A stretch of 38,929 nucleotides of DNA from a virus (IMGVR_UViG_3300045836_000108:64001-102929); one strand, 5' to 3'; numbered from the stretch's first letter, positions 1,427 to 12,102 are shown. Notes: generated by a model from the sequence alone, not told the origin. Numbers and translations are program-made.

Positions 1427-2566
1427 TCACTCGTACTCCGTGCCGCCCTTGCGGGTCAGATAGTCCGGGTTGATGAACTTGGCGATAGCGCGTCCCGCCA
1501 GCGGGTCCGTGCGGTCGTAGTCAGGCCGCACCACCAAGCCCTCCCGGACGTGGAGCTTGTTGCCGGACACCGTCTCCATGCCCTCTGACAGCTCGCACAA
1601 CATGTCGTAGTCGTACCGGCCCCGAAACAACACCGGCACAGTCGGCATGTCCCGCAGCTCCTTGGGGAGCAAGACCAAGGCCATGTCCCACACCTCACCG
1701 TCCAAGAACTTGGTGACGCCGCCGGTCCGGAACGCAATGTCGAACAGCGCAAACCCGAGAGTTTCGTCCACTCCGGCATCGGCGCCATAGTGCAGGTCCT
1801 GGACGCCCTTGCCGTAAACCTCGCCGAAAAGGGCCACGTACTCCTGCTGGTAGCTGTGCGCCAGGTGCTCCGCGACGTCCTTCAGCCGGTACCGGCGCGC
1901 CGCACGCCAGTACAGGTTCTTGTCAGACTCTTTCAGCGCCAGGTTCTTGGCGCCCTGGCCCTTGGACGACACCCACATACGGTCCTCCGCGCGGCTGTAC
2001 GTCAACATGAAGCAGCTGCCGTGGATCTTCTCCGTGGCAACCACCGGCTCGCCCTCTTCGAACATGCCCGGGAACCGTTTGATGTTCTCGACGTCGGGCC
2101 ACGGGATCAGGTCCGGCGCGGACTCCACCTCACCGGCCATCCCCACCGGCACCGGCGGCACCCACTTGGTGATGCCAAGCCTGTCGGCGTAGTCCTTGTT
2201 CAAGCTCGCGTGACCGTCCCACACCTGCTTGCCGCCCAGAAACAGCGGCTGCGTCAGGTCCCAATCCCACGGGACGGCCAAAGCGTAAGGGCGGCACACG
2301 ATGCCCTGGGACAGCTCTCCGCGCAGCCGTACGGCCTTTACGCGGTCTTTCTCCGGCCCGGCCAGCTTCCCCTCAAGCCCCAACTCCTGAAGCAACCTAG
2401 GAGGCAGTACGGCAGCCTCTGGGATGTACAGGGCGTAGTCTCCCGTCTTGAACTGCGCCTTGCGCACGACGGCACGGAAACCGCCAACCTGCGCCAGCTC
2501 CAACGCGTCGGCGTTCGGGTGCTCCAGCACCGTCAGCTGCTCCAGCTTGACCTTGAACTCGCTCAT
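1427..2566 (-). CDS. ATP-dependent RNA ligase, DRB0094/Rnl5-like family (379 aa)
   Basis: N-terminal HPNADALELAQVGG module; nucleotidyltransferase motifs TEKIHG, LFGEVYG, FALFDI, REGLVV, IAKFIN; RBS GAGGAG before ATG 2566. Confidence 0.9.
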   Translation of the reverse strand: MSEFKVKLEQLTVLEHPNADALELAQVGGFRAVVRKAQFKTGDYALYIPEAAVLPPRLLQELGLEGKLAGPEKDRVKAVRLRGELSQGIVCRPYALAVPWDWDLTQPLFLGGKQVWDGHASLNKDYADRLGITKWVPPVPVGMAGEVESAPDLIPWPDVENIKRFPGMFEEGEPVVATEKIHGSCFMLTYSRAEDRMWVSSKGQGAKNLALKESDKNLYWRAARRYRLKDVAEHLAHSYQQEYVALFGEVYGKGVQDLHYGADAGVDETLGFALFDIAFRTGGVTKFLDGEVWDMALVLLPKELRDMPTVPVLFRGRYDYDMLCELSEGMETVSGNKLHVREGLVVRPDYDRTDPLAGRAIAKFINPDYLTRKGGTEYE

Positions 2567-2745
2567 TCCCGTTTCTCCTCCGGTTTGTCCCTGCCGGGGA
2601 TCCCGCCAGGGTTCTTCTCCATCCACTGCCAGTTGTCGTACGTTCCGCCGACGCCGCATCTGAAGCACCAGTACAGGCGTTTCTCGTCGTTCTCGTAGTA
2701 GGCGTCAGATCCGCACCAGTGACAGATCCTGCGTACAGCCGTCAA
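2563..2745 (-). CDS. small zinc-ribbon protein (60 aa)
   Basis: CHWC...CFRC; GGAGGG RBS before TTG 2745; its stop overlaps the ligase start (ATGA). Confidence 0.65.
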   Translation of the reverse strand: MTAVRRICHWCGSDAYYENDEKRLYWCFRCGVGGTYDNWQWMEKNPGGIPGRDKPEEKRE

Positions 2746-2760
2746 CAGCCCTCCAACGAC

Positions 2761-2794
2761 AAAAGGGGGTGCCCCAGGCCACAGAGGCACCCCC
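2761..2794 (-). terminator. intrinsic terminator after the Ro60 gene
   Basis: ggggtgcc/ggcacccc stem followed by UUUU on the minus strand. Confidence 0.7.
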
Positions 2795-2801
2795 TAGCTT
2801 G

Positions 2802-4433
2802 CTACAGCTCCCACGGCCAACCGGCGTCGTGGCCCCGCGACAGCAAGTCCATCATCTTGAACATGGCGTCGCTGAACCCGCCGATCTCGTACCGGTTCGG
2901 AGCCGACGTGTTGATGGTTGCCTTCTCGTAGCCGTTGGTGTTGATGCCGAACATCGGTACGTCCGGCGGCAGCGTCTCCGACACAGACTGCCTGCCGTAG
3001 GACCACGCCTGCATGTCGGAGACGATGATCACGCGCTTGTGGATCGTTTCCCGGTACGTGGCCCTCAGAGCCTCTACGGTGCGGGTGCCGTGGCCAACGG
3101 AGCCGTTCTTGGCCTTGAACGCTTCGATCTGACGCAGCGCGCTGCCAGCCTTGTTAATGTTGTGCGGGAACTGGCCGTCGGCGAACCCGATCAGGTCCAC
3201 CTCGTTACCGCGCATCGCCAACGCCACGCCGATCAGAGCGCCCACGTCCTCGTGCGTCACCTGCGACTTGGAGGAAACCCGACCCTGCATGGAACCAGAG
3301 GTGTCCACCAACACCAGGCTGCGCCCGTCCAGCTTAGGAAGCGCGGAACACGCAGCATCCAAGCCCTTGTCCAGGGCGTGGCCCCAACGCAGCGACGGCG
3401 CTGCCCGGTACGCCGACAGCAGCCGGTACGGAAACACCCGTGCCTTGCGGATGTCCTCCGGGTCGGAAAGCCGCTCGCACACCGCCTTGGCGACGTCGTC
3501 GGACACCCCGGCCACGTCGAAGTTCCGCAGGTTCCGCATCAAGGCAAACGCCCCCATGGCCGGGATGATCGCTTCCCAAGCGGCCTTGTCCATCGGCCCC
3601 TGGAGCCAACCGGCCAGAGCCTCCCACGTCATGCCAGCCTCGATCAGACGCTGCGACGCGTCCTTGGAGCGGACCAGCTTGCGGCGCTCCGGAACCGGCA
3701 TAGCCATCAGGGCCTGCCGCGCCATCAGGGTCTTGTTGCCCTCCGGCAGCCGGGCGTCCGGACGGTTGTGACGCTTGTCGATGATGTACCGGAACAGTTC
3801 GCCCTGGTAGGACTTGTCCCTGGCCGGGGACGGGTGGGTCAGCTCCAGAACGTCAGCGAACCGGTAGCCGCTGTCCGAGTCCCACTTCAGGAAGTTCTTG
3901 CCGGTGTACAGCTCCTGAACAGCGTCGGCCACACCGCGCTTCACCGGCTTGGGGATGCGGCGGCCGAAGCGGGAAGTCCAGTACGCCAGCAGCTCACCCT
4001 GTTCGTCGGCGCGGACGCAGGCGGCCTTGATGATCCGCCGGTTGAGTCCGTCATTTTCCTGCGGCACGCCCGGCAGAGGCTCCTCGTACAGGGCCAGACG
4101 GGCGTGCACGGCCTCACACGCCGCGACGATGGATGCGGACCGCATGTTGGCCTTGTCGCGGAGCCACGTCACGAAATCCAGCGTCCAGCTGCCGTCCGCG
4201 ACGGCGACCTTGCGGACCAGTTCCCGGTACCGCTGATCACGGGTGTTGGCGTCCTCATAGAACGTGGCCTCGCCCACCATGTTGGTGACGGCCAACAGAA
4301 CCAGAGCCGACTTGTCGTCGTGGACCCACGCCTTGCCGCCTTCGTGGCTGACGGTCTGGACGCCGGTGTTCCCCATGGGCGACTTGGCCGGGTGGACGTA
4401 CGGCTTGGCTTCATTGGTGTTGAACTTGGCCAT
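2802..4433 (-). CDS. rsr: Ro60/Rsr orthologue (TROVE domain plus C-terminal vWA, 543 aa)
   Basis: TROVE hallmarks EATFYE, WLRDKANMRS, RRIPKPVKRGVADA, MTWEAL, MGAFALMRNLRNF, FPYRLLSAY; vWA MIDAS LVDTSGSM, GHGT, IIVSDMQ; RBS AAGGAGG. Confidence 0.95.
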   Translation of the reverse strand: MAKFNTNEAKPYVHPAKSPMGNTGVQTVSHEGGKAWVHDDKSALVLLAVTNMVGEATFYEDANTRDQRYRELVRKVAVADGSWTLDFVTWLRDKANMRSASIVAACEAVHARLALYEEPLPGVPQENDGLNRRIIKAACVRADEQGELLAYWTSRFGRRIPKPVKRGVADAVQELYTGKNFLKWDSDSGYRFADVLELTHPSPARDKSYQGELFRYIIDKRHNRPDARLPEGNKTLMARQALMAMPVPERRKLVRSKDASQRLIEAGMTWEALAGWLQGPMDKAAWEAIIPAMGAFALMRNLRNFDVAGVSDDVAKAVCERLSDPEDIRKARVFPYRLLSAYRAAPSLRWGHALDKGLDAACSALPKLDGRSLVLVDTSGSMQGRVSSKSQVTHEDVGALIGVALAMRGNEVDLIGFADGQFPHNINKAGSALRQIEAFKAKNGSVGHGTRTVEALRATYRETIHKRVIIVSDMQAWSYGRQSVSETLPPDVPMFGINTNGYEKATINTSAPNRYEIGGFSDAMFKMMDLLSRGHDAGWPWEL

Positions 4434-4464
4434 GGCCGTTCCCTCCTTGACAGAAGGGGAGAAA

Positions 4465-4597
4465 ACGCGGAGGCGTCCGAGATCCAGGCGGCGATGGTTT
4501 CACCGCCCCTTGCGGGGGCGGGTTCAGGGATTGAACCTGTTCCTTGTAAAGGAGTTACCGAAGTAACCATCACCTGCGCACCGGACGCGTTACGCGT
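4465..4597 (-). ncRNA. Y-RNA-like element Y1 (T arm, loop-closed acceptor, no D arm, UAC loop)
   Basis: Ends pair (GCGUCCG/CGGACGC); shared motifs GGUGCGCAGG..ACUUC and GGAUCUC; T arm CAGG-UUCAAUC-CCUG; acceptor hairpin CCGCCCC/GGGGCGG; immediately upstream of Ro60. Confidence 0.75.
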
Positions 4598-4599
4598 CT

Positions 4600-4738
4600 C
4601 CTCCCGAGATCCAATCGGCTGCGGTCAGCAGGGCCGGAGTCGAACCGGCGACCTCCGCCTTACCTTGGCGGTGCTCTACCACCTGAGCTACCCGGATGAA
4701 GTGGTATCCGAAGTAACCGCTGCCTGCGCACCGGGAGG
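4600..4738 (-). ncRNA. Y-RNA-like element Y2 enclosing a normal-order tRNA-Thr(GGU)-like body
   Basis: Terminal stem CCUCCCG/CGGGAGG with Y motifs; interior D arm GCUC/GAGC, anticodon arm CCGCC-AAGGUAA-GGCGG, T arm GCCGG-UUCGACU-CCGGC, only 4-bp acceptor. Confidence 0.75.
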
Positions 4739-4751
4739 TGCACTTGTTCAG

Positions 4752-4905
4752 TTGTGTAGTCCTGAGATCCAAGACGGCGGAGGCTTCCGTGGAGGCCGCT
4801 GTCTTAGGCCGCTAGACGACCGCCCCGTACGGCGCGGACAGGATTCGAACCTGCGATAGGCGGCTTAGGTAAGAAGTATCCCCAACCTACGCACCAGGAC
4901 CACAA
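4752..4905 (-). ncRNA. yrlA: Y-RNA-like element Y3, YrlA-type (tRNA module opened at the anticodon loop)
   Basis: Order: Y 5' strand, GCCGC, T arm GCAGG-UUCGAAU-CCUGU, acceptor hairpin CCGCGCC/GGGGCGG, Glu-like D arm GUCU-AGCGGCCUA-AGAC, GCGGC, Y 3' strand GGAUCUC. Confidence 0.75.
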
Positions 4906-4909
4906 TGTT

Positions 4910-5056
4910 TTGACCTGCCCGAGTTCCAAGCGACTTGGGCAACGTTACATGTTGCCAGTTACACCACGGCCCCGAGGATGGAGCCGACGGGACTCGAACC
5001 CGCATCTTCAAATTTCCAGTTCGAAGTAGCCCAGGTCTTCGCACCGGGCAGGTCAA
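4910..5056 (-). ncRNA. Y-RNA-like element Y4, circularly permuted tRNA module with intact GGA anticodon arm and G3.U70 acceptor
   Basis: 12-bp terminal stem UUGACCUGCCCG/CGGGCAGGUCAA; GGUGCGAAG motif; CUUCGAA-CUGGAAA-UUUGAAG, then T arm, then CGGCUCC-A-UCCUC-GGGGCCG, then D arm GUGU/ACAU. Confidence 0.78.
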
Positions 5057-5104
5057 GCTTGAGCGCCGTCCCCCGGCCGGGGGGGTCGCGGGGGGACGGC
5101 GCAG

Positions 5105-5187
5105 TGAGCGGTGAGGGAATCGAACCCCCGACGCCGAAGCGACGGCTTTACAGGCCGCTGTGACATACCAACAGTCACCAACCGCAC
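5105..5187 (-). tRNA. trnY: tRNA-Tyr(GUA)
   Basis: Cloverleaf with anticodon loop CUGUAAA, long variable arm CGC-UUCG-GCG, T loop UUCGAUU; one acceptor mismatch; no encoded CCA. Confidence 0.85.
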
Positions 5188-5277
5188 TAGTGGCAGATGT
5201 TGGACAGGGTATCTGCCAGACCCATCGCGACCCAACGACTCAGGCTGACCTTTCTCCAAGCCCGCGTTGGGAGCCCG

Positions 5278-5351
5278 TAGCGCGTACCGGATTCGAACCG
5301 GCGATCTTCTCCTTGAAAGGGAGGTGTCCTAGACCTCTAGACGAACGCGCC
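5278..5351 (-). tRNA. trnE: tRNA-Glu(UUC)
   Basis: GGCGCGU/ACGCGCU acceptor, GUCUAGAGGUCUAGGAC D arm, loop CUUUCAA, GGUUCGAAUCC. Confidence 0.9.
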
Positions 5352-5394
5352 TCGCGCGGTCCCCAAGTACAGCCCCGGGGACCACCTTTAGCTG

Positions 5395-5508
5395 CTAGTA
5401 GCCCAAACCGGGCTGGCGGTGCGGGCCGGTCCAGTCGTTGGATTCCGGCTGCTCCTTCTCCTGCTCCTCTTCCTCGTCCGTGTCCGGCGTCTCCGGTTCG
5501 TCGGTCAT
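5395..5508 (-). CDS. 37-aa acidic micro-protein inside the tRNA array
   Basis: CCGGAGGAGAAAAACA-ATG; MTDEPETPDTDEEEEQEKEQPESNDWTGPHRQPGLGY; below the ORF-track cutoff. Confidence 0.6.
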   Translation of the reverse strand: MTDEPETPDTDEEEEQEKEQPESNDWTGPHRQPGLGY

Positions 5509-5601
5509 TGTTTTTCTCCTCCGGTTGCGTGCGGCAGACTCCGCGTGAGGCGGCCTGCCAGCGCCCTGTCCCTACCCGCCCCCACGCGGATAGCACGCGA
5601 G

Positions 5602-5672
5602 CTGCCCTAGCAGGATTCGAACCTGCATTCACTGATCCAAAGTCAGGTGTCCTGCCGTTGGACGATAGGGCA
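5602..5672 (-). tRNA. trnQ: tRNA-Gln(UUG)
   Basis: UGCCCUA/UAGGGCA acceptor, loop CUUUGGA, GGUUCGAAUCC, G73. Confidence 0.92.
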
Positions 5673-5945
5673 GAGTAACGGCCGGTGGCCACCGGCCGTT
5701 ACGCCGTTCTCAGCAAACCGGCCCAGCGTCCGGCACTTTGGGATAACCCTCTGGGCGCTTCTCAGCCTCCTGGCCTTGGCGTGCCAGTACAAGCAGCTCC
5801 ACGGCTCGTGGTCCCCGGAGGGCTTCCCGTTCAATAAGCTCCTGGACCGTCTCGGATAACAGACAAGGCGGGTCAGGAGCGGCAGACTTTGCGCCCTGGG
5901 GTCTGCCTCCCAGGTTCTTCACCGCCCCGTAGGGCGGTACGCGCG

Positions 5946-6017
5946 TACCTCCGGCGGGATTCGAACCCGCGTCAGTCCGCTTAGAAGGCGGTTTCCCATC
6001 CTCTGGGCGACGGAGGT
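5946..6017 (-). tRNA. trnR: tRNA-Arg(UCU)
   Basis: ACCUCCG/CGGAGGU acceptor, loop CUUCUAA, T arm GCGGG-UUCGAAU-CCCGC. Confidence 0.85.
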
Positions 6018-6044
6018 ACGACCGACAAGAGCCGGTCGGGCACT

Positions 6045-6140
6045 TCAGTCCTTCTTGCCGTGGATGCAGCAGCTGCAATAGCCGCAGCAGGAGCCGCTTC
6101 TACAGTTCTTGCACTTCGCTCCCACAAACACCTTCAACAA
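6045..6140 (-). CDS. 31-aa Cys-rich micro-protein inside the tRNA array
   Basis: GGAGGAG RBS 6 nt before TTG; MLKVFVGAKCKNCRSGSCCGYCSCCIHGKKD (7 Cys, 1 His); below the ORF-track cutoff. Confidence 0.6.
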   Translation of the reverse strand: MLKVFVGAKCKNCRSGSCCGYCSCCIHGKKD

Positions 6141-6276
6141 GCGCTTCTCCTCCGGACGGCGTCTGCTACAGGCAGACGTTGGACCAAGGGGCCTGCCAGC
6201 CCTTTCGCAACCCGTAGGTGACACTACGGTGGCCCGTTCCCTTACCCACCCGCCAGTCGTAACAGATAGGGAGGGG

Positions 6277-6350
6277 TAGGCCGCCAGGGGCTCGAACCCT
6301 GAACTCCCTGGTTAAAAGCCAGGTACTCTGCCAGCTTGAGTTAGCGACCC
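6277..6350 (-). tRNA. trnK: tRNA-Lys(UUU)
   Basis: GGGUCGC/GCGGCCU acceptor, CCUGG-CUUUUAA-CCAGG, GGUUCGAGCC. Confidence 0.92.
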
Positions 6351-6667
6351 AAAATGTTGGTCTACCCCACGTACCAACGCGCCTGGTCCAACTCTTCTCT
6401 CCAGGCTCCCGAGACGGACTAGCAGTGACGCGTGTGCCGCTTCCGTCCTCCCCCTTGCGGGGGTTGCTCTAATGCCTGCTATTTGGGGCAGCAGGCGCAG
6501 TAGCCGCAGTGTCTGATCAAGCCGCAGCTACAGATCGTGTTGGCCGATGTCAGCATCCGCTTGAAACGCTTCATCGTCCCCTCCTCTCTGGAGCCGGACG
6601 TCACCGGCCCAGCCTCCAACAACGCTCAATGAAGTTGGAAACCGCGCACGGGCCGGTGACGCCGACG

Positions 6668-6742
6668 TACCCTCAACAGGATTCGAACCTGCACTGTTCT
6701 GCTCCTAAGGCAGACGCCTCCTACCAGTTGGGCTATGAGGGC
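6668..6742 (-). tRNA. trnL: tRNA-Leu(UAG), short variable loop
   Basis: GCCCUCA/UGAGGGU, UCUGC-CUUAGGA-GCAGA, 5-nt variable region ACAGU, A73. Confidence 0.85.
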
Positions 6743-6935
6743 GCGAGGCCCACCGTCCTCCATCGGGCCCGTCGGCCGATATCCAGGCGGACGGTGGGTC
6801 TCTTCAAAGTCCAGGCGGGGAGGCTGTGCCCTAGCTGGCCGCTCAACGGGGGCTTCGCGGCTTCCGGTCCGGGCACTAGTACGGGGCGCTGACCACGGTG
6901 AGCCGTACTGCCTGGTCAGTCCCTTCCTGGACTTG

Positions 6936-7010
6936 CGCTTGTGACGGGACTTGAACCCGCGACCTTCTCCTTGACAGGGAGATGAGCACTCCAGGCTGCT
7001 CCACACAAGC
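6936..7010 (-). tRNA. trnD: tRNA-Asp(GUC)
   Basis: GCUUGUG/CACAAGC, GGAGCAGCCUGGAGUGCUC D arm, loop CUGUCAA, G73. Confidence 0.92.
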
Positions 7011-7081
7011 ATTGACGGCATACAGCGCCCCGGGTATGCCAGCCGGGTATGCACCCACCCCAGAAGGGGTTCAGTTGCGCG

Positions 7082-7153
7082 CGTCCTCGCCAGGGATCGA
7101 ACCTGGGCGCTCCGGACTTCAACCGGATGCTCTTCCAACTGAGCTACAAGGAC
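7082..7153 (-). tRNA. trnF: tRNA-Phe(GAA), atypical G37/U38 and G73
   Basis: GUCCUUG/CGAGGAC, UCCGG-UUGAAGU-CCGGA, CCAGG-UUCGAUC-CCUGG. Confidence 0.82.
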
Positions 7154-7315
7154 AAGCCGCTTGCCTGCTGATCAATGACCCACCCAGGACGCGGTGTAGT
7201 GTCCGGAGATCTCCTGCCGGTTCTACAACGGCAAGCGGCGGCAGACGTGTGCACGGGGTCTGCTAGCCCGCGACCGCTTACGCGGCCTCCGGGGGAGGAG
7301 GAGCGTTAGCGCACG

Positions 7316-7391
7316 TAGCGCAGGTGGGATTTGAACCCACGATCTTTGGGTTATGAGCCCAACGGGATGGACCTAGCTTCCCTACTGCGCG
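7316..7391 (-). tRNA. trnfM: initiator tRNA-fMet(CAU)
   Basis: Unpaired C1:U72, anticodon stem UUGGG/CCCAA with three G-C pairs, loop CUCAUAA. Confidence 0.85.
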
Positions 7392-7608
7392 TCGCGTCCG
7401 TTGTGATCAGTGAAGGAGTCGGGACCCGTCCTGGGATTTGCCCAGGCTCTACACCAACGGACTGAGACAGACGTTCCGCACAGCGGTCTGTCAGCGCTGC
7501 ATCACGGTGGACCCGTTGACGTGAGCGGACGGCAAACAGTTGCACCCGGAGGTTTGCCAGCTCCGGCCGTCGCGAACCCCCCAACCCTTGAGACGTTCCG
7601 CGCGTGCG

Positions 7609-7679
7609 AGCCTTCTGCGGGTGTCGAACCCACGTCTCCACCATGGCAAGGTGGTGTCCTACCGTTGGACTAAGAAGGC
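7609..7679 (-). tRNA. trnG: tRNA-Gly(GCC)
   Basis: GCCUUCU/AGAAGGC, CCACC-UUGCCAU-GGUGG, U73. Confidence 0.9.
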
Positions 7680-7747
7680 GTGCCCGTCCGGCAGTGGGAG
7701 CCGGACGGGACACCGCCACCGTCCCTGGACATGACAGGGGCGGGGGC

Positions 7748-7823
7748 TGGAGCCACCTGCGGGATTCGAACCCGCTATCTGTCGCTTACGAGGCGACCGC
7801 ATGTCCCAACTTGCTCCGGTGGC
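7748..7823 (-). tRNA. trnT: tRNA-Thr(CGU) with encoded CCA
   Basis: GUCGC-CUCGUAA-GCGAC, GCGGG-UUCGAAU-CCCGC, ends UCCA; 7:66 mismatch. Confidence 0.8.
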
Positions 7824-7990
7824 GCGGCGATCATTGCGTGGGGGGATCGCCAACCCCCATCCCAGCTCCCAGCAGGGTCGAAAGGAGTAAAGCCCCCTGC
7901 CGGGGCCAACGCGGTGACGGTTTGTGCGTACAGGTACCGCCGGACCTGTTCTAGTCGCCACCGCACGAGTAAGGCACGGCGGCTGACGCG

Positions 7991-8062
7991 TGGCCCTACC
8001 AGGAATCGAACCTGGACCCCCACCTTCGGAGAGTGGTGCGCTATCCGTTGCGCTACAAGGCC
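7991..8062 (-). tRNA. trnR: tRNA-Arg(CCG)
   Basis: GGCCUUG/UAGGGCC, GCGC-AACGGAUA-GCGC D arm, loop CUCCGAA. Confidence 0.88.
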
Positions 8063-8299
8063 GTGCGGGAGGAGAGGCAGCGCCGACATGTACCTCTAGG
8101 CCTTCTGCGCAGAAGGCTGTTTCTTCTCCCTGACGCCGGTTGATGTCGTCTCACCGGCGGTACTGCGGTACGGCGTCGGACTTCAGTCACCTGCCTCTCC
8201 GACAAGGCCCCCGCCACCCAGAGCCGTGTAATGAGCAGGGTTGGGAAATCAGGCGGGGAAGGCGCGGCCTCCCCGGGTTTGGAGAGGTCGCCGTACCAG

Positions 8300-8372
8300 C
8301 TGGCCCGGCAGGACTCGAACCTGCGGTAGCCGACTTAACAGGTCGGTGCCGTACCAACTTGGCTACGGGCCA
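8300..8372 (-). tRNA. trnN: tRNA-Asn(GUU)
   Basis: UGGCCCG/CGGGCCA, CCGAC-CUGUUAA-GUCGG, G73. Confidence 0.92.
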
Positions 8373-8499
8373 TCGACCTGGGAAGGTGCGCACCCTCCCA
8401 GGGTTGAAGGACAAGCTGGAGACCCGTCGTAGTGCTGAGACCCACTAAACGGGGCGTCGCCAGTTCTCAGTTCTAAGCGCTCCCTTTCCTGTTCCTCCG

Positions 8500-8571
8500 T
8501 GCCCTCACAGGGATTTGAACCCCAAACCTGCTGCTTGTAGGGCAGCTGCTCTGCCGTTGAGCTATAAGGGC
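8500..8571 (-). tRNA. trnV: tRNA-Val(UAC)
   Basis: GCCCUUA/UGAGGGC, GCUGC-CCUACAA-GCAGC, A73. Confidence 0.9.
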
Positions 8572-8803
8572 GTAGCCCGGTCGTTTTGTTCAGGTGACCG
8601 GCAGGCCTGACTCTGGTCGGTCCGGCTCGCGGGGTGCTAGCCCGGTCTACGGACCGCAGATCGCATATCTGGCGACCAGGGACGCGCGCTGCTGGCTTGC
8701 CGCGTCGTTCCCCTGCTGAACCAAGCCAGTCCGGCACACAGGGGACCTGCTGCGACGCGCACCCCCAGCGGATCGGGGAGGATACGGGAGAGGTGCGCGT
8801 CAG

Positions 8804-8876
8804 TGTCCCCGGCAGGAATCGAACCTGCAATCGCTGGATTCGTAGTCCAGTGCCTTATCCGTTAGGCCACGGAGAC
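8804..8876 (-). tRNA. trnR: tRNA-Arg(ACG)
   Basis: GUCUCCG/CGGGGAC, CUGGA-CUACGAA-UCCAG, A20-containing D loop. Confidence 0.92.
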
Positions 8877-8987
8877 GTGACGGCTTTGTGCAGAACCAGC
8901 GCCGCCGTTCTGGTGAGTAGAGCATCCGGCCCCAGACGCAGCCGACGGGTAGGGAGTCGGATACGCCTTGGGCTTTGGCCCTCTGCG

Positions 8988-9062
8988 TGCTCTCGGCGGG
9001 AGTCGAACCCGCACTGTACGTGGTTTGAGCGCGTCGCCTCTGCCTAGTTGGGCTACGAGAGC
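8988..9062 (-). tRNA. trnL: tRNA-Leu(CAA), short variable loop
   Basis: GCUCUCG/CGAGAGC, loop CUCAAAC, one anticodon-stem mismatch, variable region ACAGU. Confidence 0.82.
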
Positions 9063-9182
9063 TTGGGGCGCAGCCCCGCGCAGGAGGAGAAGACACTGCG
9101 CGGGGCCGCTTATCCCAGGGTTGTTTCCAGAGGGTGGTGAGTTGTAAGCCAAACCAACGCGTCCGCAACGGTCCTGGGATCG

Positions 9183-9259
9183 TCCTCACGGGTGGATTCG
9201 AACCAACCGATCTCCGTCTTATCAGGACGGCGCTCTGAGCCAGGCTGAGCCACGTGAGG
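9183..9259 (-). tRNA. trnI: tRNA-Ile(GAU)
   Basis: CCUCACG/CGUGAGG, CCGUC-CUGAUAA-GACGG; bulged T stem. Confidence 0.85.
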
Positions 9260-9386
9260 TTTGTCGGTTGTGCGGCCTCCATGGAGGCAGGCCGCCACCG
9301 ACGTCTACGTTCTTCTACATCATCGTCACTGTTGAGTTCTCAAGTATCCAGGAACTTCGCGCCCAAGGTACAAACGCGTTCCTTTG

Positions 9387-9700
9387 TGCGGTGGCGCGGA
9401 ATCGAACCACGCAGGCCGGTCAGGCTTAGCCAACATACGTCGGCCGTACGCATCCCGTAGAGGCTGGCAGACTATGACACCTGCCCGTCGCCTTGTCCCT
9501 CAGGACCCCTATCCAGGGCACCGCTTGTTTAGTTGTTGTGCGGGCTTCCGGATTTGCACCGGAAGCCGGGCCGTGCACTGCCACTCTCCCGCCTTGGGAC
9601 CCGCGTGGCGGGCCCGTTTTCCTCCTTGTGGAGGACACCCGTCCAGTTGGACCTGGAAGGTTCCGGCGTTGCAACCCCACGGGCCAACAGGGTCGTCGCC
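9387..9700 (-). ncRNA. unassigned structured spacer ending in a T-arm-like hairpin
   Basis: CGUGG-UUCGAUU-CCGCG near the 3' end; 9-bp hairpin with UGCAAAU loop at 9543-9567; no complete cloverleaf found. Confidence 0.3.
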
Positions 9701-9704
9701 TTAG

Positions 9705-9777
9705 GGTGATGTGCGGGAATCGAACCCACTACAACCTGGACCACAACCAGGTGCCCAACCGGAGGGCCTACACCACC
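9705..9777 (-). tRNA. trnH: tRNA-His(GUG) with encoded G-1:C73
   Basis: 8-bp acceptor GGUGGUGU/ACAUCACC, CCUGG-UUGUGGU-CCAGG. Confidence 0.88.
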
Positions 9778-9781
9778 AAGT

Positions 9782-9856
9782 GAGACCGCCAGAGATCCGG
9801 ACGGCTGCGGCCTGTTCCCAACGAAGTATCCGCTGCCTGCGCACCTGGCGGTGCTC
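9782..9856 (-). ncRNA. Y-RNA-like element Y5, minimal (75 nt, no tRNA module)
   Basis: CCGCCAG/CUGGCGG terminal stem, GGUGCGCAGGCAGCGGAUACUUC, short interior, CCGUCCGGAUCUC. Confidence 0.72.
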
Positions 9857-9871
9857 TGAAGTTTTAGTTGT

Positions 9872-10017
9872 TGTACCCCACCAGAGGTCTAGTCGGCCAG
9901 GCAGATCGTAGGTGCTCTGCCGCTGAGCTACGGTCCCGGGGGACCGGCAGGATTCGAACCTGCGACAACCCGCTTAGAAGGCGAAGAACTCCTGGCCTGC
10001 GCACCTGGTGGGGTGCA
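9872..10017 (-). ncRNA. Y-RNA-like element Y6, circularly permuted tRNA-Arg(UCU)-like module
   Basis: UGCACCCCACCAG/CUGGUGGGGUACA terminal stem; GGUGCGCAGG..UCUUC; UUCGC-CUUCUAA-GCGGG, T arm GCAGG-UUCGAAU-CCUGC, CGGUCCC-CC-GGGACCG, D arm GCUC-AGCGGCA-GAGC. Confidence 0.78.
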
Positions 10018-10071
10018 TCGCCTTTACTGAGGACCAGCTGCATTTGTTCCTTGCGTTCCGGCGATGTCTTT

Positions 10072-10101
10072 ACGATACCGCGTTACGGGGCGGGGCGTCT
10101 A
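10072..10101 (-). promoter_or_regulatory. candidate promoter of the Y-RNA/tRNA/Ro60 operon
   Basis: TAGACG-18-TATCGT on the minus strand about 55 nt upstream of Y6; same -10 hexamer as the 27538 promoter. Confidence 0.45.
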
Positions 10102-10112
10102 ATCAAACTCGG

Positions 10113-10625
10113 TCACAACGGCCCCATCCAGTCCGCCGCAGTCCGTACCAAGATCCCAGCGTCACGAGCCATACGCATACACCCCGTAGTCCCAGACTTC
10201 TCCCTCAACGGGAAAGCCAACACGACGTCGGCGCCCAACGCAACCATCTTCCTGTTGCGCCTGGGACCGGCCTTAGGACACCAGTCCTCCAACGTTCCCG
10301 GGTGGAGCCTGTCCCCCGGTTGGCGGCGCACCCGGTGGGGCTTAGAAGGGCATCCGGAACCGCAAGAATCCCAATCCGCCGGATGCCGCTCCGGCGTCCA
10401 ACCCCACGATGTCCAGAGCCGGTCCGCTATCGCGTCGGCTCCGGTAGAGCAGGCACCGTGCACCAGGACAGGAGAAAGCCCGAAGTCCTGTGCCGTCGCC
10501 ACGTATTCACGGAGCGCTCGGCGTACAGGCCCTTCGGGCTTCCAGTCGCGGGATCCTATCAACAAGATCCTGTAGGTGTCAGGTTCCAGCAGCGTCGGCG
10601 CGGCCAATCGAGAACGTGCCGTCAC
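10113..10625 (-). CDS. SLOG-superfamily (DUF2493/YspA-like) protein
   Basis: RILLIGSRDW, LVHGAC.TGADAIA, HPADW, AGPRRNRKM, VLAFP, SGTTGCMRMA. Confidence 0.8.
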   Translation of the reverse strand: MTARSRLAAPTLLEPDTYRILLIGSRDWKPEGPVRRALREYVATAQDFGLSPVLVHGACSTGADAIADRLWTSWGWTPERHPADWDSCGSGCPSKPHRVRRQPGDRLHPGTLEDWCPKAGPRRNRKMVALGADVVLAFPLREKSGTTGCMRMARDAGILVRTAADWMGPL

Positions 10626-11082
10626 AGTTTTTGAACACCTCCCACTCGGACGGCGGCCGTGTCCGCCATCCTGGGTCGTACTTGTCTAAGGCTTCCCCGT
10701 AGGGGAGACGTCCGGAGGCGAGCCCCAAAAGCATCCCCAAGTCTTGCGGGTACAGCTCCAGAGGGATCACGCCGGTACCGGCCAGCAGCGGCGTCTCCAG
10801 CCACGCCACGGGATCCTTGTGGCCGTGGTGCTCCAGGAAGTCCAGAACAGCCAGCGCCTGAGCCACCTTCATGACGTCGCTGAACCATCCGGACTTCCGG
10901 CGCCGCCAGTCCCGCAACTCGGCCAAGCTTACGTCAAGCATGTGGGCGATATGCCGGGACGCCATACCCTTGTCTTCCAGGGCGTCCAGACCGGCCCAGT
11001 GGTTCTTGCGCCAGTCGCGGCTGGTGCGGCGTGCCAGCAGAACGGTTTGGAACGCCAGAGCCTCCTCAGCCTCAGAAGCCAT
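10579..11082 (-). CDS. HTH-containing protein, possibly Xre/MbcA antitoxin-like (167 aa)
   Basis: MASRHIAHMLDVSLAELRDWRR helix-turn-helix; downstream AWLETPLLAG..PLEL; start placed at ATG 11082. Confidence 0.55.
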   Translation of the reverse strand: MASEAEEALAFQTVLLARRTSRDWRKNHWAGLDALEDKGMASRHIAHMLDVSLAELRDWRRRKSGWFSDVMKVAQALAVLDFLEHHGHKDPVAWLETPLLAGTGVIPLELYPQDLGMLLGLASGRLPYGEALDKYDPGWRTRPPSEWEVFKNCDGTFSIGRADAAGT

Positions 11083-11257
11083 CCGGGTCGTCGTCTCCCC
11101 TCTGCGGCTCCACACAGTCGTGGACAACGCGGTAGTCGGTCAGGTCCGGATCAGGGTGCTCATCGCCGCGCAGCGAATACTCACACTCCTCCGCTAGCCG
11201 CTGCGCCGCCTCCGCAGACAAACACACCGGCCAGTTGCAGATACGGGCGTCAGCCAC
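11072..11257 (-). CDS. hypothetical protein (61 aa)
   Basis: GGAGG RBS before GTG 11257; overlaps neighbours at both ends. Confidence 0.55.
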   Translation of the reverse strand: MADARICNWPVCLSAEAAQRLAEECEYSLRGDEHPDPDLTDYRVVHDCVEPQRGDDDPDGF

Positions 11258-11444
11258 AGGCGCCTCCGTGATCATCTTCCCAGTGGAAGATCCGCAGCCC
11301 GAGCTGCGCCTCCCAACGCTTGCGGAAACAACGGACCCAACCGCAGTCACAGGCCGCCACCCAGTCGTGCCGTCGGAGACAGGCCCAGTTGTTGCATGGC
11401 CGACGGCCGGACGCGTACCGGTGAACCCGGACGATGGAGGTCAT
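11250..11444 (-). CDS. small Cys/His-rich hypothetical protein (64 aa)
   Basis: Fills the gap between neighbours; C..WAC..H..CDC..C...H pattern. Confidence 0.45.
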   Translation of the reverse strand: MTSIVRVHRYASGRRPCNNWACLRRHDWVAACDCGWVRCFRKRWEAQLGLRIFHWEDDHGGACG

Positions 11445-11454
11445 GGTGGAGACT

Positions 11455-12102
11455 TCAGAACGCACCTGGAGCCACCTGCCACGTTGTCAGGCCCAGCTTC
11501 CGCCAGAGGTACACGCATCGGTCCCTGTCGTCCAGCACCAGGATCGGGTGGGTGATGCCGCGCACGTACTGGTCAAACAGGTCAAGCTTGACGATGTCGT
11601 CGCTGCGGCGGTCACCCTCCGGCCGCATCAGCAGCATGTCGTACTTGACGGCGTACTTGGCGAGCCAGCGTTCGGTGTGGGGCCGGTACTCGGACTGGCG
11701 GCCGGACAGCAGGATGATGGTTTTGCCCGCGTCCCGCCACATGGCCAGGTTGGTGGACACGACGGCGTTGAGGTAGTCGGTTTCGACCCTGTCGAAGTCG
11801 TACGGTCCCCGGTGGAAGCGTTCGGCCAGGGTGCCGTCGATGTCGCAGAGGACGCTCTGCGGCACGTCCTCGTCGTCCTGGACGGGCCTGGCCATCTGCA
11901 CGTCCACGCCGAACGGCTGAACCGACGCGCCGGTGGCCTGCTGAAGGTGCCACCAGATCTTGTCGCTGGCGTCCTGCTCGATGTCGGTAATGCGACGTGA
12001 GACGCCAGACAGGCCAGTGGTGCCGGGCCCGTCGTGGACGTACCACGCCCAGTCGGAGCCGTTGGAGTCGGCCAGGACAGTGTGTATAGGGTTGGCGCTC
12101 AC
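11455..12102 (-). CDS. HAD-family polynucleotide 3'-phosphatase (T4 Pnkp C-terminal type) without a kinase domain (215 aa)
   Basis: CDIDGTLA, SGR, TERWL, LLMRPEGDRRSDDIVKLDL, LDDR, LWRKLGLTTWQV; GTG 12102 overlaps the upstream stop; no P-loop in the N-terminal ~80 aa. Confidence 0.85.
   Translation of the reverse strand: MSANPIHTVLADSNGSDWAWYVHDGPGTTGLSGVSRRITDIEQDASDKIWWHLQQATGASVQPFGVDVQMARPVQDDEDVPQSVLCDIDGTLAERFHRGPYDFDRVETDYLNAVVSTNLAMWRDAGKTIILLSGRQSEYRPHTERWLAKYAVKYDMLLMRPEGDRRSDDIVKLDLFDQYVRGITHPILVLDDRDRCVYLWRKLGLTTWQVAPGAF

What the first reader, a model, noticed from the sequence alone, without database searches (positions are those of the whole stretch)
1427..12102. Phage tRNA-protection island: Ro60, six Y RNAs, 18 tRNAs, RNA ligase and 3'-phosphatase
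Seen: on one strand the order is HAD 3'-phosphatase, SLOG, Y6, Y5, 18 tRNAs, Y4, Y3, Y2, Y1, Ro60, terminator, zinc ribbon, Rnl5-type ligase. All six Y elements have paired ends and share GGUGCG(C/U/A)AG(G/A)-N8-(A/U)CUUC on the 5' side; the 3' side is GGAUCUC in four, with variants GGAACUC (Y4) and AGACCUC (Y6). The 5' motif echoes the GGUCCGAAG strand of animal Y RNAs. Established: bacterial and some phage Ro60 genes have adjacent Y RNAs (YrlA/YrlB), and in Salmonella they sit in an RNA-repair operon with the RtcB ligase. Inference: this phage combines an unusually large Y-RNA repertoire bracketing its tRNA array with heal-and-seal enzymes instead of RtcB, forming one system to defend translation against host tRNA-cleaving defences.
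Basis: partly seen in the sequence, partly recalled or inferred. Interest (0 to 1): 0.92.

Follow-up and report, generated by a model that had tools for sequence, protein, structure and literature searches.

The report
Six Y RNAs beside phage Ro60
An uncultured soil phage carries six small tRNA-mimicking "Y RNAs" woven into its tRNA gene cluster next to the gene for their likely partner protein Ro60; this is a real, enlarged version of a known RNA-protein system, but the idea that it forms one tRNA-repair machine with the nearby ligase and phosphatase is only weakly supported.

Summary
The motif GGTGCGHAGR-N8-WCTTC occurs six times on the minus strand, against 0.03 expected. Each copy has a covarying terminal stem. 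A covariance model finds exactly six such RNAs in the complete 102.9-kb phage genome.

They are YrlA/YrlB-type Y RNAs. They lie upstream of a true Ro60 gene, whose predicted fold matches Xenopus Ro60 at TM 0.73.

The same RNA family sits directly upstream of Ro60 in all 26 metagenomic loci that could be tested. It also occurs in Streptomyces, Gordonia and Arthrobacter phages. Copy number there is 2-6, and the copies are interleaved with tRNA genes, often only 2-8 nt apart. Two relatives also carry six, so six is the top of a range and not unique. This scan has already noted similar arrays beside Ro60-like genes in other phages.

The ligase is a true DraRnl/Rnl5 enzyme. The phosphatase is a T4-Pnkp-type domain, but no Pnkp kinase domain exists anywhere in the genome. 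RtcB is absent.

Ligase linkage recurs in a few relatives; phosphatase linkage does not. One relative with six Y RNAs has neither enzyme. A strong terminator separates Ro60 from the ligase. The "single tRNA-protection system" reading is therefore only partly supported.

Verdict: a new variant of a known kind.

The parts
11455..12102 (-). Pnkp-type HAD 3'-phosphatase, 215 aa. It has the phosphatase domain only, with no kinase domain.
   Evidence: Pfam HAD_PNKP 145.6 bits. phrog_505 matches profile positions 127-295 only. PDB Pnkp1 4xrp at 4.8e-30 and T4 Pnk 1ltq at 6.9e-23, with the DIDGT, SGR and DDR motifs aligned. GC3 frame plot. No kinase homolog in the genome.
10579..11082 (-). ORF of 167 aa with no family match.
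   Evidence: High GC3 frame. No Pfam, PHROG or NCBIfam hit.
10113..10565 (-). SLOG (YAcAr/YspA-related) protein, placed directly upstream of Y6.
   Evidence: Pfam PF10686 40.7 bits; phrog_289. A 51%-identical homolog sits directly upstream of the Y array in the closest relative, L008.
9875..10014 (-). Y6, a long YrlA-type Y RNA. Order: terminal stem, conserved loop, stem 2, anticodon-like hairpin (loop CUUCUAA), T-arm, acceptor-like hairpin, D-arm.
   Evidence: Model R1 104.5 bits. Rfam YrlA 44 bits, E 1.4e-7. Fold. 35/40 identity to the phage's own tRNA-Arg(UCU), including 14/14 in the anticodon arm.
9785..9852 (-). Y5, a short YrlB-like Y RNA: a hairpin with no tRNA-like module. It ends 8 nt before tRNA-His.
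   Evidence: R1 65.3 bits; fold. The positional orthologue L008b is 74% identical and is also followed by tRNA-His.
5104..9776 (-). Array of 18 tRNA genes, from His to Tyr.
   Evidence: ARAGORN. Rfam tRNA 37.5-67.8 bits.
4910..5056 (-). Y4, a long YrlA-type Y RNA. It has a 13-bp terminal stem, an anticodon-like hairpin (loop CUGGAAA), a T-arm, a 7-bp acceptor-like hairpin and a D-arm.
   Evidence: R1 100.5 bits. Rfam YrlA full-length 25.3 bits, E 0.005. Fold z = -4.06.
4755..4904 (-). Y3, a long YrlA-type Y RNA with a T-arm, acceptor-like hairpin, D-arm and an extra 3' hairpin.
   Evidence: R1 93 bits. Rfam YrlA partial 21.2 bits.
4600..4738 (-). Y2, a Y RNA whose tRNA-like module is in normal order (D-arm, anticodon arm with loop AAGGUAA, T-arm). 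Stem 2 takes the place of the acceptor stem.
   Evidence: R1 73.3 bits. ARAGORN 'tRNA-Thr(GGU)' at 4623-4698. Rfam tRNA 40.2 bits over model positions 4-67. Fold.
4473..4588 (-). Y1, a Y RNA with a partial tRNA-like module: a UUCG hairpin, a T-arm-like hairpin and a GC hairpin, but no D-arm. It ends 39 nt before the Ro60 start codon.
   Evidence: R1 73.5 bits. Fold z = -4.22.
2802..4433 (-). Ro60 (TROVE + vWA) RNA-binding ring protein, 543 aa.
   Evidence: Pfam TROVE 50.6 bits; phrog_850 3.4e-52. AlphaFold model pLDDT 81.9. The top 13 PDB fold matches are all Ro60/Rsr/phiLo TROVE, TM 0.58-0.73. The MIDAS residues DxSxS...T...D are invariant in 15 homologs.
2764..2795 (-). Intrinsic terminator hairpin after Ro60, with 12 bp, 9 of them G-C, followed by a T run.
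   Evidence: Terminator scan; sequence.
2563..2745 (-). Small CxxC...CxxC zinc-ribbon protein (about 60 aa), translationally coupled to the ligase through an ATGA overlap.
   Evidence: Sequence and translation. Weak phrog_3794 hit.
1427..2566 (-). Rnl5-type (DraRnl/NgrRnl family) ATP-dependent RNA ligase, 379 aa.
   Evidence: NCBIfam TIGR02306 RNA_lig_DRB0094 equivalog, 313.8 bits against a cut-off of 151, full length. Pfam OB plus RNA_ligase. PDB NgrRnl 5cot at 2e-15, with KIHG aligned to the KLDG motif. Among 14 control genomes, phrog_968 hits only D. radiodurans.

Best explanation
This is a phage-encoded Ro60-Y RNA ribonucleoprotein module built into the phage's tRNA operon.

**Shown.** Six diverged paralogous Y RNAs, about 60% identical to one another, share one 'handle'. 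The handle is a covarying terminal stem, a nearly invariant internal loop (5' GGUGCGNAG / 3' GA..CU.GAUCUC) and a covarying second stem. This RNA family always lies just upstream of a Ro60 gene on the same strand. Beyond the handle the six carry different bodies:
- three permuted YrlA-type tRNA mimics (Y3, Y4, Y6);
- one normal-order tRNA mimic (Y2);
- one partial mimic (Y1);
- one bare hairpin (Y5).

**Inferred.**
1. The RNAs are transcribed with the tRNAs. The enzymes that trim the neighbouring tRNAs (RNase P and the 3' processing enzymes) also cut them out, because the gaps to flanking tRNAs are only a few nucleotides.
2. The Ro60 ring binds the conserved loop, which resembles the GGUCCGA strand contacted by Xenopus Ro60.
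3. The tRNA-like bodies act as adaptors. They bring tRNA-recognising host factors, most likely a 3'-5' exoribonuclease such as PNPase (as in D. radiodurans and Thermus phage phiLo), to Ro60.
4. The particle then surveys and clears damaged or misfolded tRNA-like RNAs during infection.

The Rnl5 ligase and the kinase-less Pnkp phosphatase are neighbouring RNA-end enzymes that may act on the same substrates. They are accessory and variable, not obligate parts of the module.
For: - **Motif and copy number.** 6 copies against 0.03 expected. Model R1 finds exactly six, at 65-104 bits; the next best hit is 18.9 bits. There are six in the whole genome.
- **Covariation.** On a MAFFT alignment of 33 elements, 93.4% of cells are paired against 73% in shuffles and 37-48% in slid controls. 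22 of 29 pairs show compensatory changes, in all four helices.
- **Rfam YrlA.** Sub-threshold but significant hits to Y6 (44 bits, E 1.4e-7), Y4 and Y3. In the same test a mycobacteriophage of the published type (Bxz1) reaches only 32.5 bits.
- **Partnership with Ro60.** Of 45 IMG/VR loci that match the motif, 29 contain R1-positive RNAs. All 26 that extend far enough have Ro60 directly downstream on the same strand.
- **Ro60 itself.** Fold confirmed, with an intact MIDAS site.
- **Interleaving with tRNAs.** Gaps of 2-8 nt to neighbouring tRNAs occur in relatives G001 and G003, in the phages Atuin, BRock and GiJojo, and in this window.
- **Published mechanism.** Y RNA tethers Ro60 to PNPase in D. 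radiodurans (PMC4201824). phiLo Ro60 binds two phage Yrl RNAs and forms complexes with host PNPase (PMC12135203). M. smegmatis YrlA is cut by RNase P (PMC4201824).
Against: - I have no expression, end-mapping or binding data for this phage or any relative.
- The conserved internal loop is almost invariant, so its pairing and its role as the Ro60 site cannot be tested by covariation.
- The PNPase-tether step is carried over from distant systems. The phage Ro60 is only 16-20% identical to the solved Ro60 proteins in the structural alignments.
- The anticodon-like loops and the recurrent ligase linkage hint at a more tRNA-specific role (repair or decoy) than general surveillance.
Confidence: 0.55

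Rival explanations
1. Integrated tRNA heal-and-seal island. Ro60-Y RNPs capture tRNAs cut by host anticodon nucleases, the Pnkp-type phosphatase heals the 3' ends, and the Rnl5 ligase reseals them. The island, together with the phage's own tRNAs, would then be a single anti-defence system.
For: - All parts lie on one strand within 10.7 kb.
- The ligase is a true DraRnl-type RNA ligase and the phosphatase has intact catalytic motifs.
- In the closest relative (G001) the layout is SLOG, Y array, Ro60, tRNA array, then the same ligase.
- BRock and GiJojo have another annotated RNA ligase at the end of the same tRNA array.
- In Salmonella, rsr-yrlBA sits in the rtcBA repair operon, which is induced by cut tRNAs (PMC7790460).
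- Co-occurrence of Ro-like protein, RNA ligase and polynucleotide kinase has been noted in mycobacteriophage LeBron (PMC13148394).
Against: - No Pnkp kinase domain exists anywhere in the genome (tblastn E > 0.4). The only AAA_33 hit lies in the base-hypermodification cluster. Breaks with 5'-OH ends therefore cannot be healed by the island alone.
- HAD_PNKP genes in 4 relatives lie 30-50 kb from Ro60.
- The Rnl5 ligase is present in only 2 of 11 Ro60 phages.
- G002 has six Y RNAs and Ro60 but no PF09414 ligase, HAD_PNKP or RtcB.
- A strong terminator separates Ro60 from the ligase unit.
- From my own knowledge, Rnl5 enzymes seal nicks in duplex RNA, not anticodon loops.
Confidence: 0.2
2. Decoy panel. 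The Y RNAs are Ro60-stabilised tRNA look-alikes that display anticodon-type stem-loops. They would titrate or mislead host tRNA-targeting nucleases or other tRNA-binding defence proteins, sparing the real tRNAs.
For: - Y6 carries an exact 14-nt copy of the anticodon arm of the phage's own tRNA-Arg(UCU), and 35/40 identity through the T-arm.
- Y4, Y6 and about half of the long forms in relatives have a first hairpin with a 7-nt CU-NNN-AA loop and varying 'anticodons'.
- Y2 embeds a normal-order tRNA-like body.
- Hughes et al. proposed that YrlA could be a competitive inhibitor of an anticodon nuclease (PMC7790460).
Against: - Only part of the family has canonical 7-nt loops.
- Y5 and the other short forms have no tRNA-like body, yet they are conserved.
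- No target nuclease is known for the unknown host.
- This is inference from shape alone.
Confidence: 0.15
3. The elements are not trans-acting RNAs. They would be cis elements of the tRNA operon (processing or insulator hairpins, attenuators) or decaying tRNA pseudogenes.
For: They lie in tRNA arrays, contain tRNA-derived arms, and abut tRNA genes.
Against: - A conserved handle with compensatory changes is shared across phages whose Ro60 proteins are only 36-59% identical.
- The elements are strictly adjacent to Ro60 on the same strand, in 26 of 26 testable loci.
- They are homologous to YrlA, which is experimentally Ro60-bound in bacteria (PMC4201824).
- They are absent from the phage's other tRNA cluster.
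Confidence: 0.05

Closest known systems
Bacterial Rsr (Ro60) with YrlA/YrlB Y RNAs: Salmonella, M. smegmatis (Chen et al. 2014, PMC4201824; Rfam RF02553)
   Same: - The RNAs are encoded upstream of Ro60 on the same strand.
- A 5' motif next to a terminal stem.
- A permuted tRNA-like domain in the order stem-loop, T-arm, acceptor-like hairpin, D-arm.
- A long form coexists with a short hairpin form.
- Significant sub-threshold Rfam YrlA hits.
   Different: - Six copies instead of two.
- Two copies lie 5.4-5.6 kb from Ro60, beyond the 4-kb criterion, because 18 tRNA genes are inserted in the array.
- The motif is UGCG(A/C/U)AG rather than GNCGAA(N)G.
- A conserved 3' strand (GAUCUC) is also recognisable.
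- One copy has a normal-order tRNA body.
- The first hairpin often looks like an anticodon arm rather than a variable arm.
- No RtcB/RtcA is present.
Mycobacteriophage (cluster C: Bxz1, ET08) Ro60 with one YrlA (Pedulla 2003 as cited in PMC4201824; Chen 2014)
   Same: An actinophage Ro60 with a YrlA-type RNA, in a genome rich in tRNA genes.
   Different: In Bxz1 my model and Rfam find one convincing Y RNA (36 and 32.5 bits). Here there are six, interleaved with the tRNAs.
Thermus phage phiLo Ro60 with Yrl1/Yrl2 (PMC12135203; PDB 9KOP, 9L5Y)
   Same: A phage Ro60, and the best sequence match in the PDB (1e-17). It has several phage-encoded Y-like RNAs upstream. In that system, binding and a ternary complex with host PNPase were shown experimentally.
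   Different: Two RNAs without described tRNA-like bodies. Different motif (CGAA in a bulge). Not embedded in a tRNA array. Only about 20% identity in the structural alignment.
T4 Pnkp + Rnl1 tRNA repair against the PrrC anticodon nuclease (Amitsur et al. 1987, as cited in PMC7790460)
   Same: A phage-encoded 3'-phosphatase of the same HAD family (T4 Pnk 1ltq at 6.9e-23), together with an ATP-dependent RNA ligase.
   Different: There is no 5'-kinase domain. The ligase is the nick-sealing Rnl5/DraRnl type, not Rnl1. The two genes lie about 9 kb apart, in different transcription units.
Salmonella rsr-yrlBA-rtcBA RNA-repair operon (Hughes et al. 2020, PMC7790460)
   Same: Ro60 and Y RNAs are genetically linked to an RNA ligase and to tRNA damage.
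   Different: No RtcB, RtcA or RtcR. The ligase chemistry differs: 5'-P/3'-OH sealing here, against 3'-P/5'-OH for RtcB.

Membership tests
YrlA-type Y RNA (Rfam RF02553; Chen et al. 2014) | Score at or above the Rfam gathering threshold (69 bits) | tested here: not met
   The best scores are 44 bits (Y6), 25.3 (Y4) and 21.2 (Y3). The threshold is strict: the Y RNA of Bxz1, a phage of the published group, reaches only 32.5 bits, and relatives' long forms reach 40-48 bits full-length.
YrlA-type Y RNA (Rfam RF02553; Chen et al. 2014) | Encoded within 4 kb of Ro60 on the same strand | tested here: met
   Y1-Y4 end 39-480 nt upstream of the Ro60 start, on the same strand. Y5 and Y6 are on the same strand but 5.4-5.6 kb away, because the tRNA array is inserted between them and Ro60.
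YrlA-type Y RNA (Rfam RF02553; Chen et al. 2014) | 5' motif GNCGAA(N0-1)G | tested here: not met
   All six read (G/U)GUGCG(C/A/U)AG. Rfam aligns UGCGAA to ggCgaA, so the first G is U, and in five of six the first A is C or U. This is a close variant, not the exact motif.
YrlA-type Y RNA (Rfam RF02553; Chen et al. 2014) | tRNA-like domain with T-arm, acceptor-like hairpin and D-arm in permuted order | tested here: met
   Present in Y3, Y4 and Y6. The T-arm is 93.8% paired and the D-arm 96.3% paired, both with compensatory changes. Y1 is partial, Y2 is in normal order, and Y5 has none (YrlB-like).
YrlA-type Y RNA (Rfam RF02553; Chen et al. 2014) | Physically bound by Ro60 | not testable with these tools
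   There is only genomic co-occurrence: 26 of 26 testable loci have Ro60 directly downstream.
Animal Y RNA (Rfam RF00019) | Match to the Y_RNA covariance model | tested here: not met
   No Y_RNA hit at E <= 10 over 4400-5120. There is only a weak Deinococcus_Y_RNA hit to Y1 (17.7 bits, E 2.3). The resemblance of GGUGCGA to GGUCCGA (PMC4201824) is a lead only.
Ro60 / TROVE | TROVE domain above the Pfam cut-off, and a ring of helical repeats closed by a vWA domain with a MIDAS site | tested here: met
   TROVE 50.6 bits against a cut-off of 23. Model pLDDT 81.9. The top 13 PDB matches are all Ro60/Rsr/phiLo TROVE, aligned over the full length with TM up to 0.73. DxSxS...T...D is invariant. The protein is not an Rsr equivalog by NCBIfam (32 bits against a cut-off of 900).
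Rnl5 (DraRnl/NgrRnl) RNA ligase | N-terminal OB module plus C-terminal nucleotidyltransferase with a motif I lysine; equivalog model | tested here: met
   TIGR02306 313.8 bits against a cut-off of 151, covering 4-341 of 341. Pfam PHA02142 OB plus RNA_ligase. KIHG aligns to KLDG of NgrRnl. Activity was not tested.
Bifunctional T4-type Pnkp | P-loop 5'-kinase domain fused to the HAD 3'-phosphatase domain | tested here: not met
   The phosphatase domain is present. The kinase domain is absent from the gene and from the whole genome. The relative G001 has the full 306-aa form with GLPASGKT.
rsr-yrlBA-rtcBA type repair operon | RtcB ligase linked to Ro60 | tested here: not met
   PF01139 is absent from this genome and from 10 other Ro60 phages; the control search hits 10 of 14 genomes.

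The most novel reading that the evidence does not exclude
The phage would make its Y RNAs by permuting and fusing pieces of its own tRNA genes onto a Ro60-binding handle. Y6, for example, carries the exact anticodon arm of the phage's tRNA-Arg(UCU). The resulting panel of Ro60-protected anticodon-arm mimics would act as decoys or sensors for host anticodon nucleases. If so, arrays of Y RNAs in phage tRNA operons would be a previously unrecognised class of RNA-based anti-defence, tuned to the host's tRNA-targeting immunity.
Probability: 0.15. Interest if true: 0.85.

Novelty: new variant of a known kind. Interest (0 to 1): 0.55.

Why it matters
Ro60 and Y RNAs are conserved from bacteria to humans, yet their role in bacteria and phages is still poorly defined. 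Published phage examples describe one or two Y RNAs.

This phage and many actinophages carry arrays of 2-6 diverged Y RNAs with one shared handle and different tRNA-like bodies. The arrays are physically woven into tRNA operons. GenBank records do not annotate them, and some are mis-called as tRNAs.

Cultivable Streptomyces, Gordonia and Arthrobacter phages share the layout. That gives experimental systems for three open questions:
- what Ro60-Y RNPs do during infection;
- whether the tRNA-like bodies are adaptors, decoys or substrates;
- how Y RNAs arise from tRNA genes.

It also corrects the tempting but weakly supported idea that everything RNA-related in the neighbourhood forms one machine.

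Tried and rejected
- Megablast of the whole island against GenBank phages gave no match.
- Rfam at gathering thresholds returned only tRNAs.
- Public sequencing runs: only DNA (soil and rhizosphere metagenome) holders were listed. No RNA holder was listed for the island or for Y1-Y4, so expression could not be examined and read laying was not used.
- The supplementary tables of Chen et al. 2014 are not held. The 2020 Annual Review and Burroughs & Aravind 2016 are not held either. I therefore could not check how many Y RNAs per phage those works list.
- Literature searches for YrlA, Y RNA or Ro-like together with phage found no description of multi-copy Y arrays in actinophages.
- The sigma-70 promoter scan was uninformative: 3 hits against 1.3 expected.
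- Repeat searches did not reveal the terminator-promoter cassette module, reported elsewhere in this genome, inside the island. Transcription units other than the Ro60 terminator remain unresolved.
- Pairing inside the conserved internal loop could not be tested, because its columns are nearly invariant.
- The ORFs at 10579-11082 and 12099-12554 gave no hit in Pfam, PHROGs or NCBIfam.
- The PADLOC scan failed on a coordinate error and was not repeated.
- I considered and rejected the idea that the gene upstream of the phosphatase is a frameshifted kinase. It has no P-loop and no similarity to the G001 kinase domain.

Full report
**Source and context.** The window is bases 64001-102929 of a 102,929-bp IMG/VR virus record. 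The record has direct terminal repeats and is estimated complete. G+C content is 64%. Its Ro60 is most similar to those of Streptomyces, Gordonia and Arthrobacter phages, at 36-42% identity. It is an uncultured actinophage-like phage. The only public runs that hold it are soil and rhizosphere metagenomes.

**Check of the observation.**
- The 5' motif GGTGCGHAGR-N8-WCTTC occurs six times, all on the minus strand. Only 0.03 matches are expected by chance, and there are none elsewhere in the genome.
- The 3' sides and paired ends are as described.
- ARAGORN and Rfam confirm 18 tRNA genes between Y5 and Y4. A 19th call, 'tRNA-Thr(GGU)', lies inside Y2.
  - a Pnkp-type HAD phosphatase, a SLOG/YAcAr protein, Ro60 (TROVE), a zinc-ribbon ORF and an RNA ligase with an N-terminal OB domain;
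  - a 12-bp terminator directly after Ro60.
- Small corrections:
  - A 167-aa ORF with no family match lies between the phosphatase and SLOG genes.
  - The ligase starts at ATG 2566, overlapping the stop of the zinc-ribbon gene in an ATGA.

**Are the six elements real structured RNAs?** I collected Ro60 loci from IMG/VR (25 loci at 36-59% identity). The same motif lies upstream of Ro60 in most of them.
- I aligned 33 elements with MAFFT, so the alignment was not fitted to any structure. On it I scored four helices: the terminal stem, a second stem, the T-arm and the D-arm.
- 93.4% of cells pair, against 73% after shuffling and 37-48% when the partners are slid.
- 22 of 29 pairs show changes on both sides, and no shuffle out of 500 reached the observed values.
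- One caveat: I chose the terminal-stem boundaries by their pairing. However, the stem always abuts the invariant CUC of the 3' motif, and the other three helices were not selected by pairing.
- A covariance model built from this alignment (R1) finds exactly six matches in the window with filters off, at 65-104 bits. The next best hit is 18.9 bits and overlaps a tRNA. It finds six in the whole genome.

**What kind of RNA?**
- Rfam's YrlA model gives significant but sub-threshold hits to Y6 (44 bits, E 1.4e-7), Y4 (full-length, 25.3 bits) and Y3.
- Relatives' long forms score 40-48 bits full-length.
- The gathering score of 69 bits is strict. In the same test the Y RNA of mycobacteriophage Bxz1, a member of the phage group in which YrlA was first reported, reaches 32.5 bits.
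- The anatomy matches Chen et al. 2014 (PMC4201824): a 5' motif, then a stem, then four stem-loops, of which the T-arm, acceptor-like hairpin and D-arm mimic tRNA in permuted order. A short hairpin form (YrlB-like) is also present.
- The six bodies differ:
  - Y3, Y4 and Y6 are permuted YrlA-type.
  - Y2 carries a normal-order D-arm, anticodon arm and T-arm.
  - Y1 has only a T-arm-like part.
  - Y5 is a bare 68-nt hairpin.
- The six are about 60% identical to each other, so they are old paralogues.

**Partner protein.**
- The 543-aa protein folds with mean pLDDT 81.9. Its 13 best PDB matches are all Ro60, Rsr or phiLo TROVE structures, aligned over their full length with TM up to 0.73.
- The MIDAS residues are invariant in 15 homologs.
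- I also tested the partnership from the RNA side. An exact-motif scan of IMG/VR gave 45 loci.
  - 29 of them contain R1-positive RNAs.
  - All 26 that extend far enough have Ro60 directly downstream on the same strand.
  - The other 16 have no R1 hit, and their number fits chance matches to the pattern.

**How unusual is six?**

| Genome | R1 matches |
|---|---|
| This phage | 6 |
| G001, closest relative (Ro60 59% identical) | 6 |
| G002 | 6, split 3 + 3 |
| G003 | 5, or 6 with a weak partial match |
| G004 | 5 |
| GiJojo | 4, plus 1 seen by eye |
| BRock | 4 |
| Atuin | 4 strong; 5-7 with weak matches |
| Quantum | 3, or 4 with a weak partial match |
| VanLee | 2-3 |
| Bxz1 | 1 |

- The short IMG/VR loci show 1-6 copies.
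- In G001 the order is Y, Y, tRNA-His, tRNA-Lys, Y, Y, Y, Y, Ro60, then 25 tRNAs and the ligase. The 2 + 4 split is therefore ancestral, and in this phage most of the tRNA array simply sits inside the split rather than after Ro60.
- Y6, Y5 and Y4 pair with G001's first three copies at 69-74% identity.
- None of the GenBank records annotates these RNAs. GiJojo 'tRNA-Arg(cct)' and VanLee 'tRNA-Arg(tct)' overlap Y RNAs.
- I found no paper in the held library describing multi-copy Y arrays in actinophages.
  - Published phage cases have one YrlA per phage, in 22 phages (PMC4201824), or two Yrl RNAs in phiLo (PMC12135203).
  - I could not read the supplementary tables of Chen et al.
- Earlier notes of this scan report arrays of 4-7 Y-like RNAs beside Ro60-like genes in other, unrelated phages. 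The theme is therefore recurrent in this scan.

**The enzymes.**
- *Ligase.* It is an equivalog of D. radiodurans DRB0094: TIGR02306 at 313.8 bits against a cut-off of 151. It aligns to the Naegleria Rnl5 structure, including the motif I lysine. Its PHROG family hits only D. radiodurans among 14 control genomes.
- *Phosphatase.* It aligns to the phosphatase domains of Pnkp1 and T4 Pnkp, with the catalytic DxDGT motif. It has no kinase domain.
  - G001 encodes a full 306-aa kinase-phosphatase, 53% identical over the phosphatase half, about 40 kb from its Ro60.
  - No sequence in this genome resembles that kinase domain.
  - The one AAA_33 hit lies in the base-modification cluster.
- *RtcB.* It is absent from all 11 Ro60 phages examined.

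**Is it one system?**
- In favour:
  - The genes share a strand and lie close together.
  - SLOG, Y array, Ro60, tRNAs and the same ligase recur in G001.
  - BRock and GiJojo have a different annotated RNA ligase at the end of the same tRNA array.
- Against:
  - HAD_PNKP lies 30-50 kb from Ro60 in four relatives.
  - The Rnl5 ligase is found in only 2 of 11 genomes.
  - G002 has six Y RNAs but none of the three repair enzymes.
  - A terminator follows Ro60.
  - The 5'-kinase needed for classic healing is missing.
- My conclusion is that the conserved core is Ro60 plus the Y array inside a tRNA operon. The ligase is a recurrent but replaceable neighbour. The phosphatase and SLOG genes have no demonstrated connection to the core.

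**Mechanism.**
- *Shown:* a shared handle with covarying stems, diverse tRNA-like bodies, obligate adjacency to Ro60, and gaps of only 2-8 nt to neighbouring tRNAs in several lineages.
- *Inferred:*
  1. The Y RNAs are co-transcribed with the tRNAs and released by tRNA-processing enzymes. M. smegmatis YrlA is an RNase P substrate (PMC4201824).
  2. Ro60 binds the conserved loop. GGUGCGA compares with the GGUCCGA strand contacted by Xenopus Ro60 (PMC4201824).
  3. The bodies recruit tRNA-recognising factors, most plausibly host PNPase, as in D. radiodurans and phiLo (PMC4201824, PMC12135203).
  4. The particle would then survey or clear structured RNA during infection.
- *Hints of a more specific role:*
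  - Y6 contains an exact 14-nt copy of the anticodon arm of the phage's own tRNA-Arg(UCU), and 35/40 identity through the T-arm.
  - Y4, Y6 and about half of the long forms in relatives have a first hairpin with a 7-nt CU-NNN-AA loop.
  - Hughes et al. suggested YrlA might competitively inhibit an anticodon nuclease (PMC7790460).
  - I keep this decoy idea as the most novel reading that is not excluded.

**Verdict.** They are Y RNAs of the YrlA/YrlB kind, partnered with a true Ro60. The expanded, tRNA-interleaved array with several body topologies is a new variant of a known kind. It is shared by a sizeable group of actinophages and is unannotated in public records. The integrated 'tRNA-protection island' interpretation goes beyond the evidence.

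Noticed in passing
window 9390-9455 (-): The 445-nt gap between tRNA-His and tRNA-Ile holds a T-arm (GCGUGGUUCGAUUCCGCGCC) with tRNA-like flanks. Neither ARAGORN nor Rfam calls it. It may be a decayed tRNA or another tRNA-like element.
   Followed up: no
window 5531-5562, 5879-5907, 6171-6200: Related hairpins (GGCAGAC...GCCUGCC) recur in the long spacers of 250-320 nt between tRNA genes. They could be processing or terminator-like elements of the array.
   Followed up: no
window 9944-9983 vs 5951-5990 (-): Y6 and the phage's own tRNA-Arg(UCU) share 35 of 40 bases, from the anticodon stem through the T-arm, including an identical CGCCUUCUAAGCGG. This suggests exchange between tRNA genes and Y RNA bodies.
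   Followed up: partly
A1 columns 30-64 (Y4, Y6, L011, L012, L015, L019, L020, L023, L032 long forms): The first hairpin of many long Y RNAs has a 7-nt loop CU-NNN-AA, like an anticodon loop. Its 5' stem strand is formed by the conserved CUUC of the motif. In the published YrlA model this hairpin is treated as a variable arm (PMC4201824).
   Followed up: partly
L007:8769-8843 (GiJojo gene 29); L034:5704-5775 (VanLee gene 125): The GenBank features 'tRNA-Arg(cct)' and 'tRNA-Arg(tct)' lie inside R1-positive Y RNAs (50.7 and 95.7 bits). They are probably mis-annotated tRNA-like modules.
   Followed up: partly
window 11455-12102 (-) vs L038:463-1383 (-): This phage's Pnkp homolog lacks the P-loop kinase half that its closest relative keeps. 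It has about 75 unrelated N-terminal residues instead.
   Followed up: yes
window 9785-9852 then 9704-9776; L008:1532-1603 then 1609-1681; L020:5383-5525 then 5533-5607: A Y RNA immediately followed by tRNA-His, with a gap of 5-8 nt, recurs in three related genomes. This hints at a conserved processing unit.
   Followed up: no
window 16151-16549 (-): The only AAA_33-type kinase signal in the genome (27 bits) lies in the cluster that another note of this scan reads as a thymine-hypermodification pathway. It is probably unrelated to RNA repair.
   Followed up: no
A1 columns 13 and 173: Inside the otherwise invariant loop, position 13 (G, or U in G001) and position 173 (U, A or G) partly co-vary: G-U in 19 elements, U-A in 5 of the 6 G001 elements, and G-G in this window's Y1-Y5. 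A non-canonical or protein-read pair is possible.
   Followed up: partly
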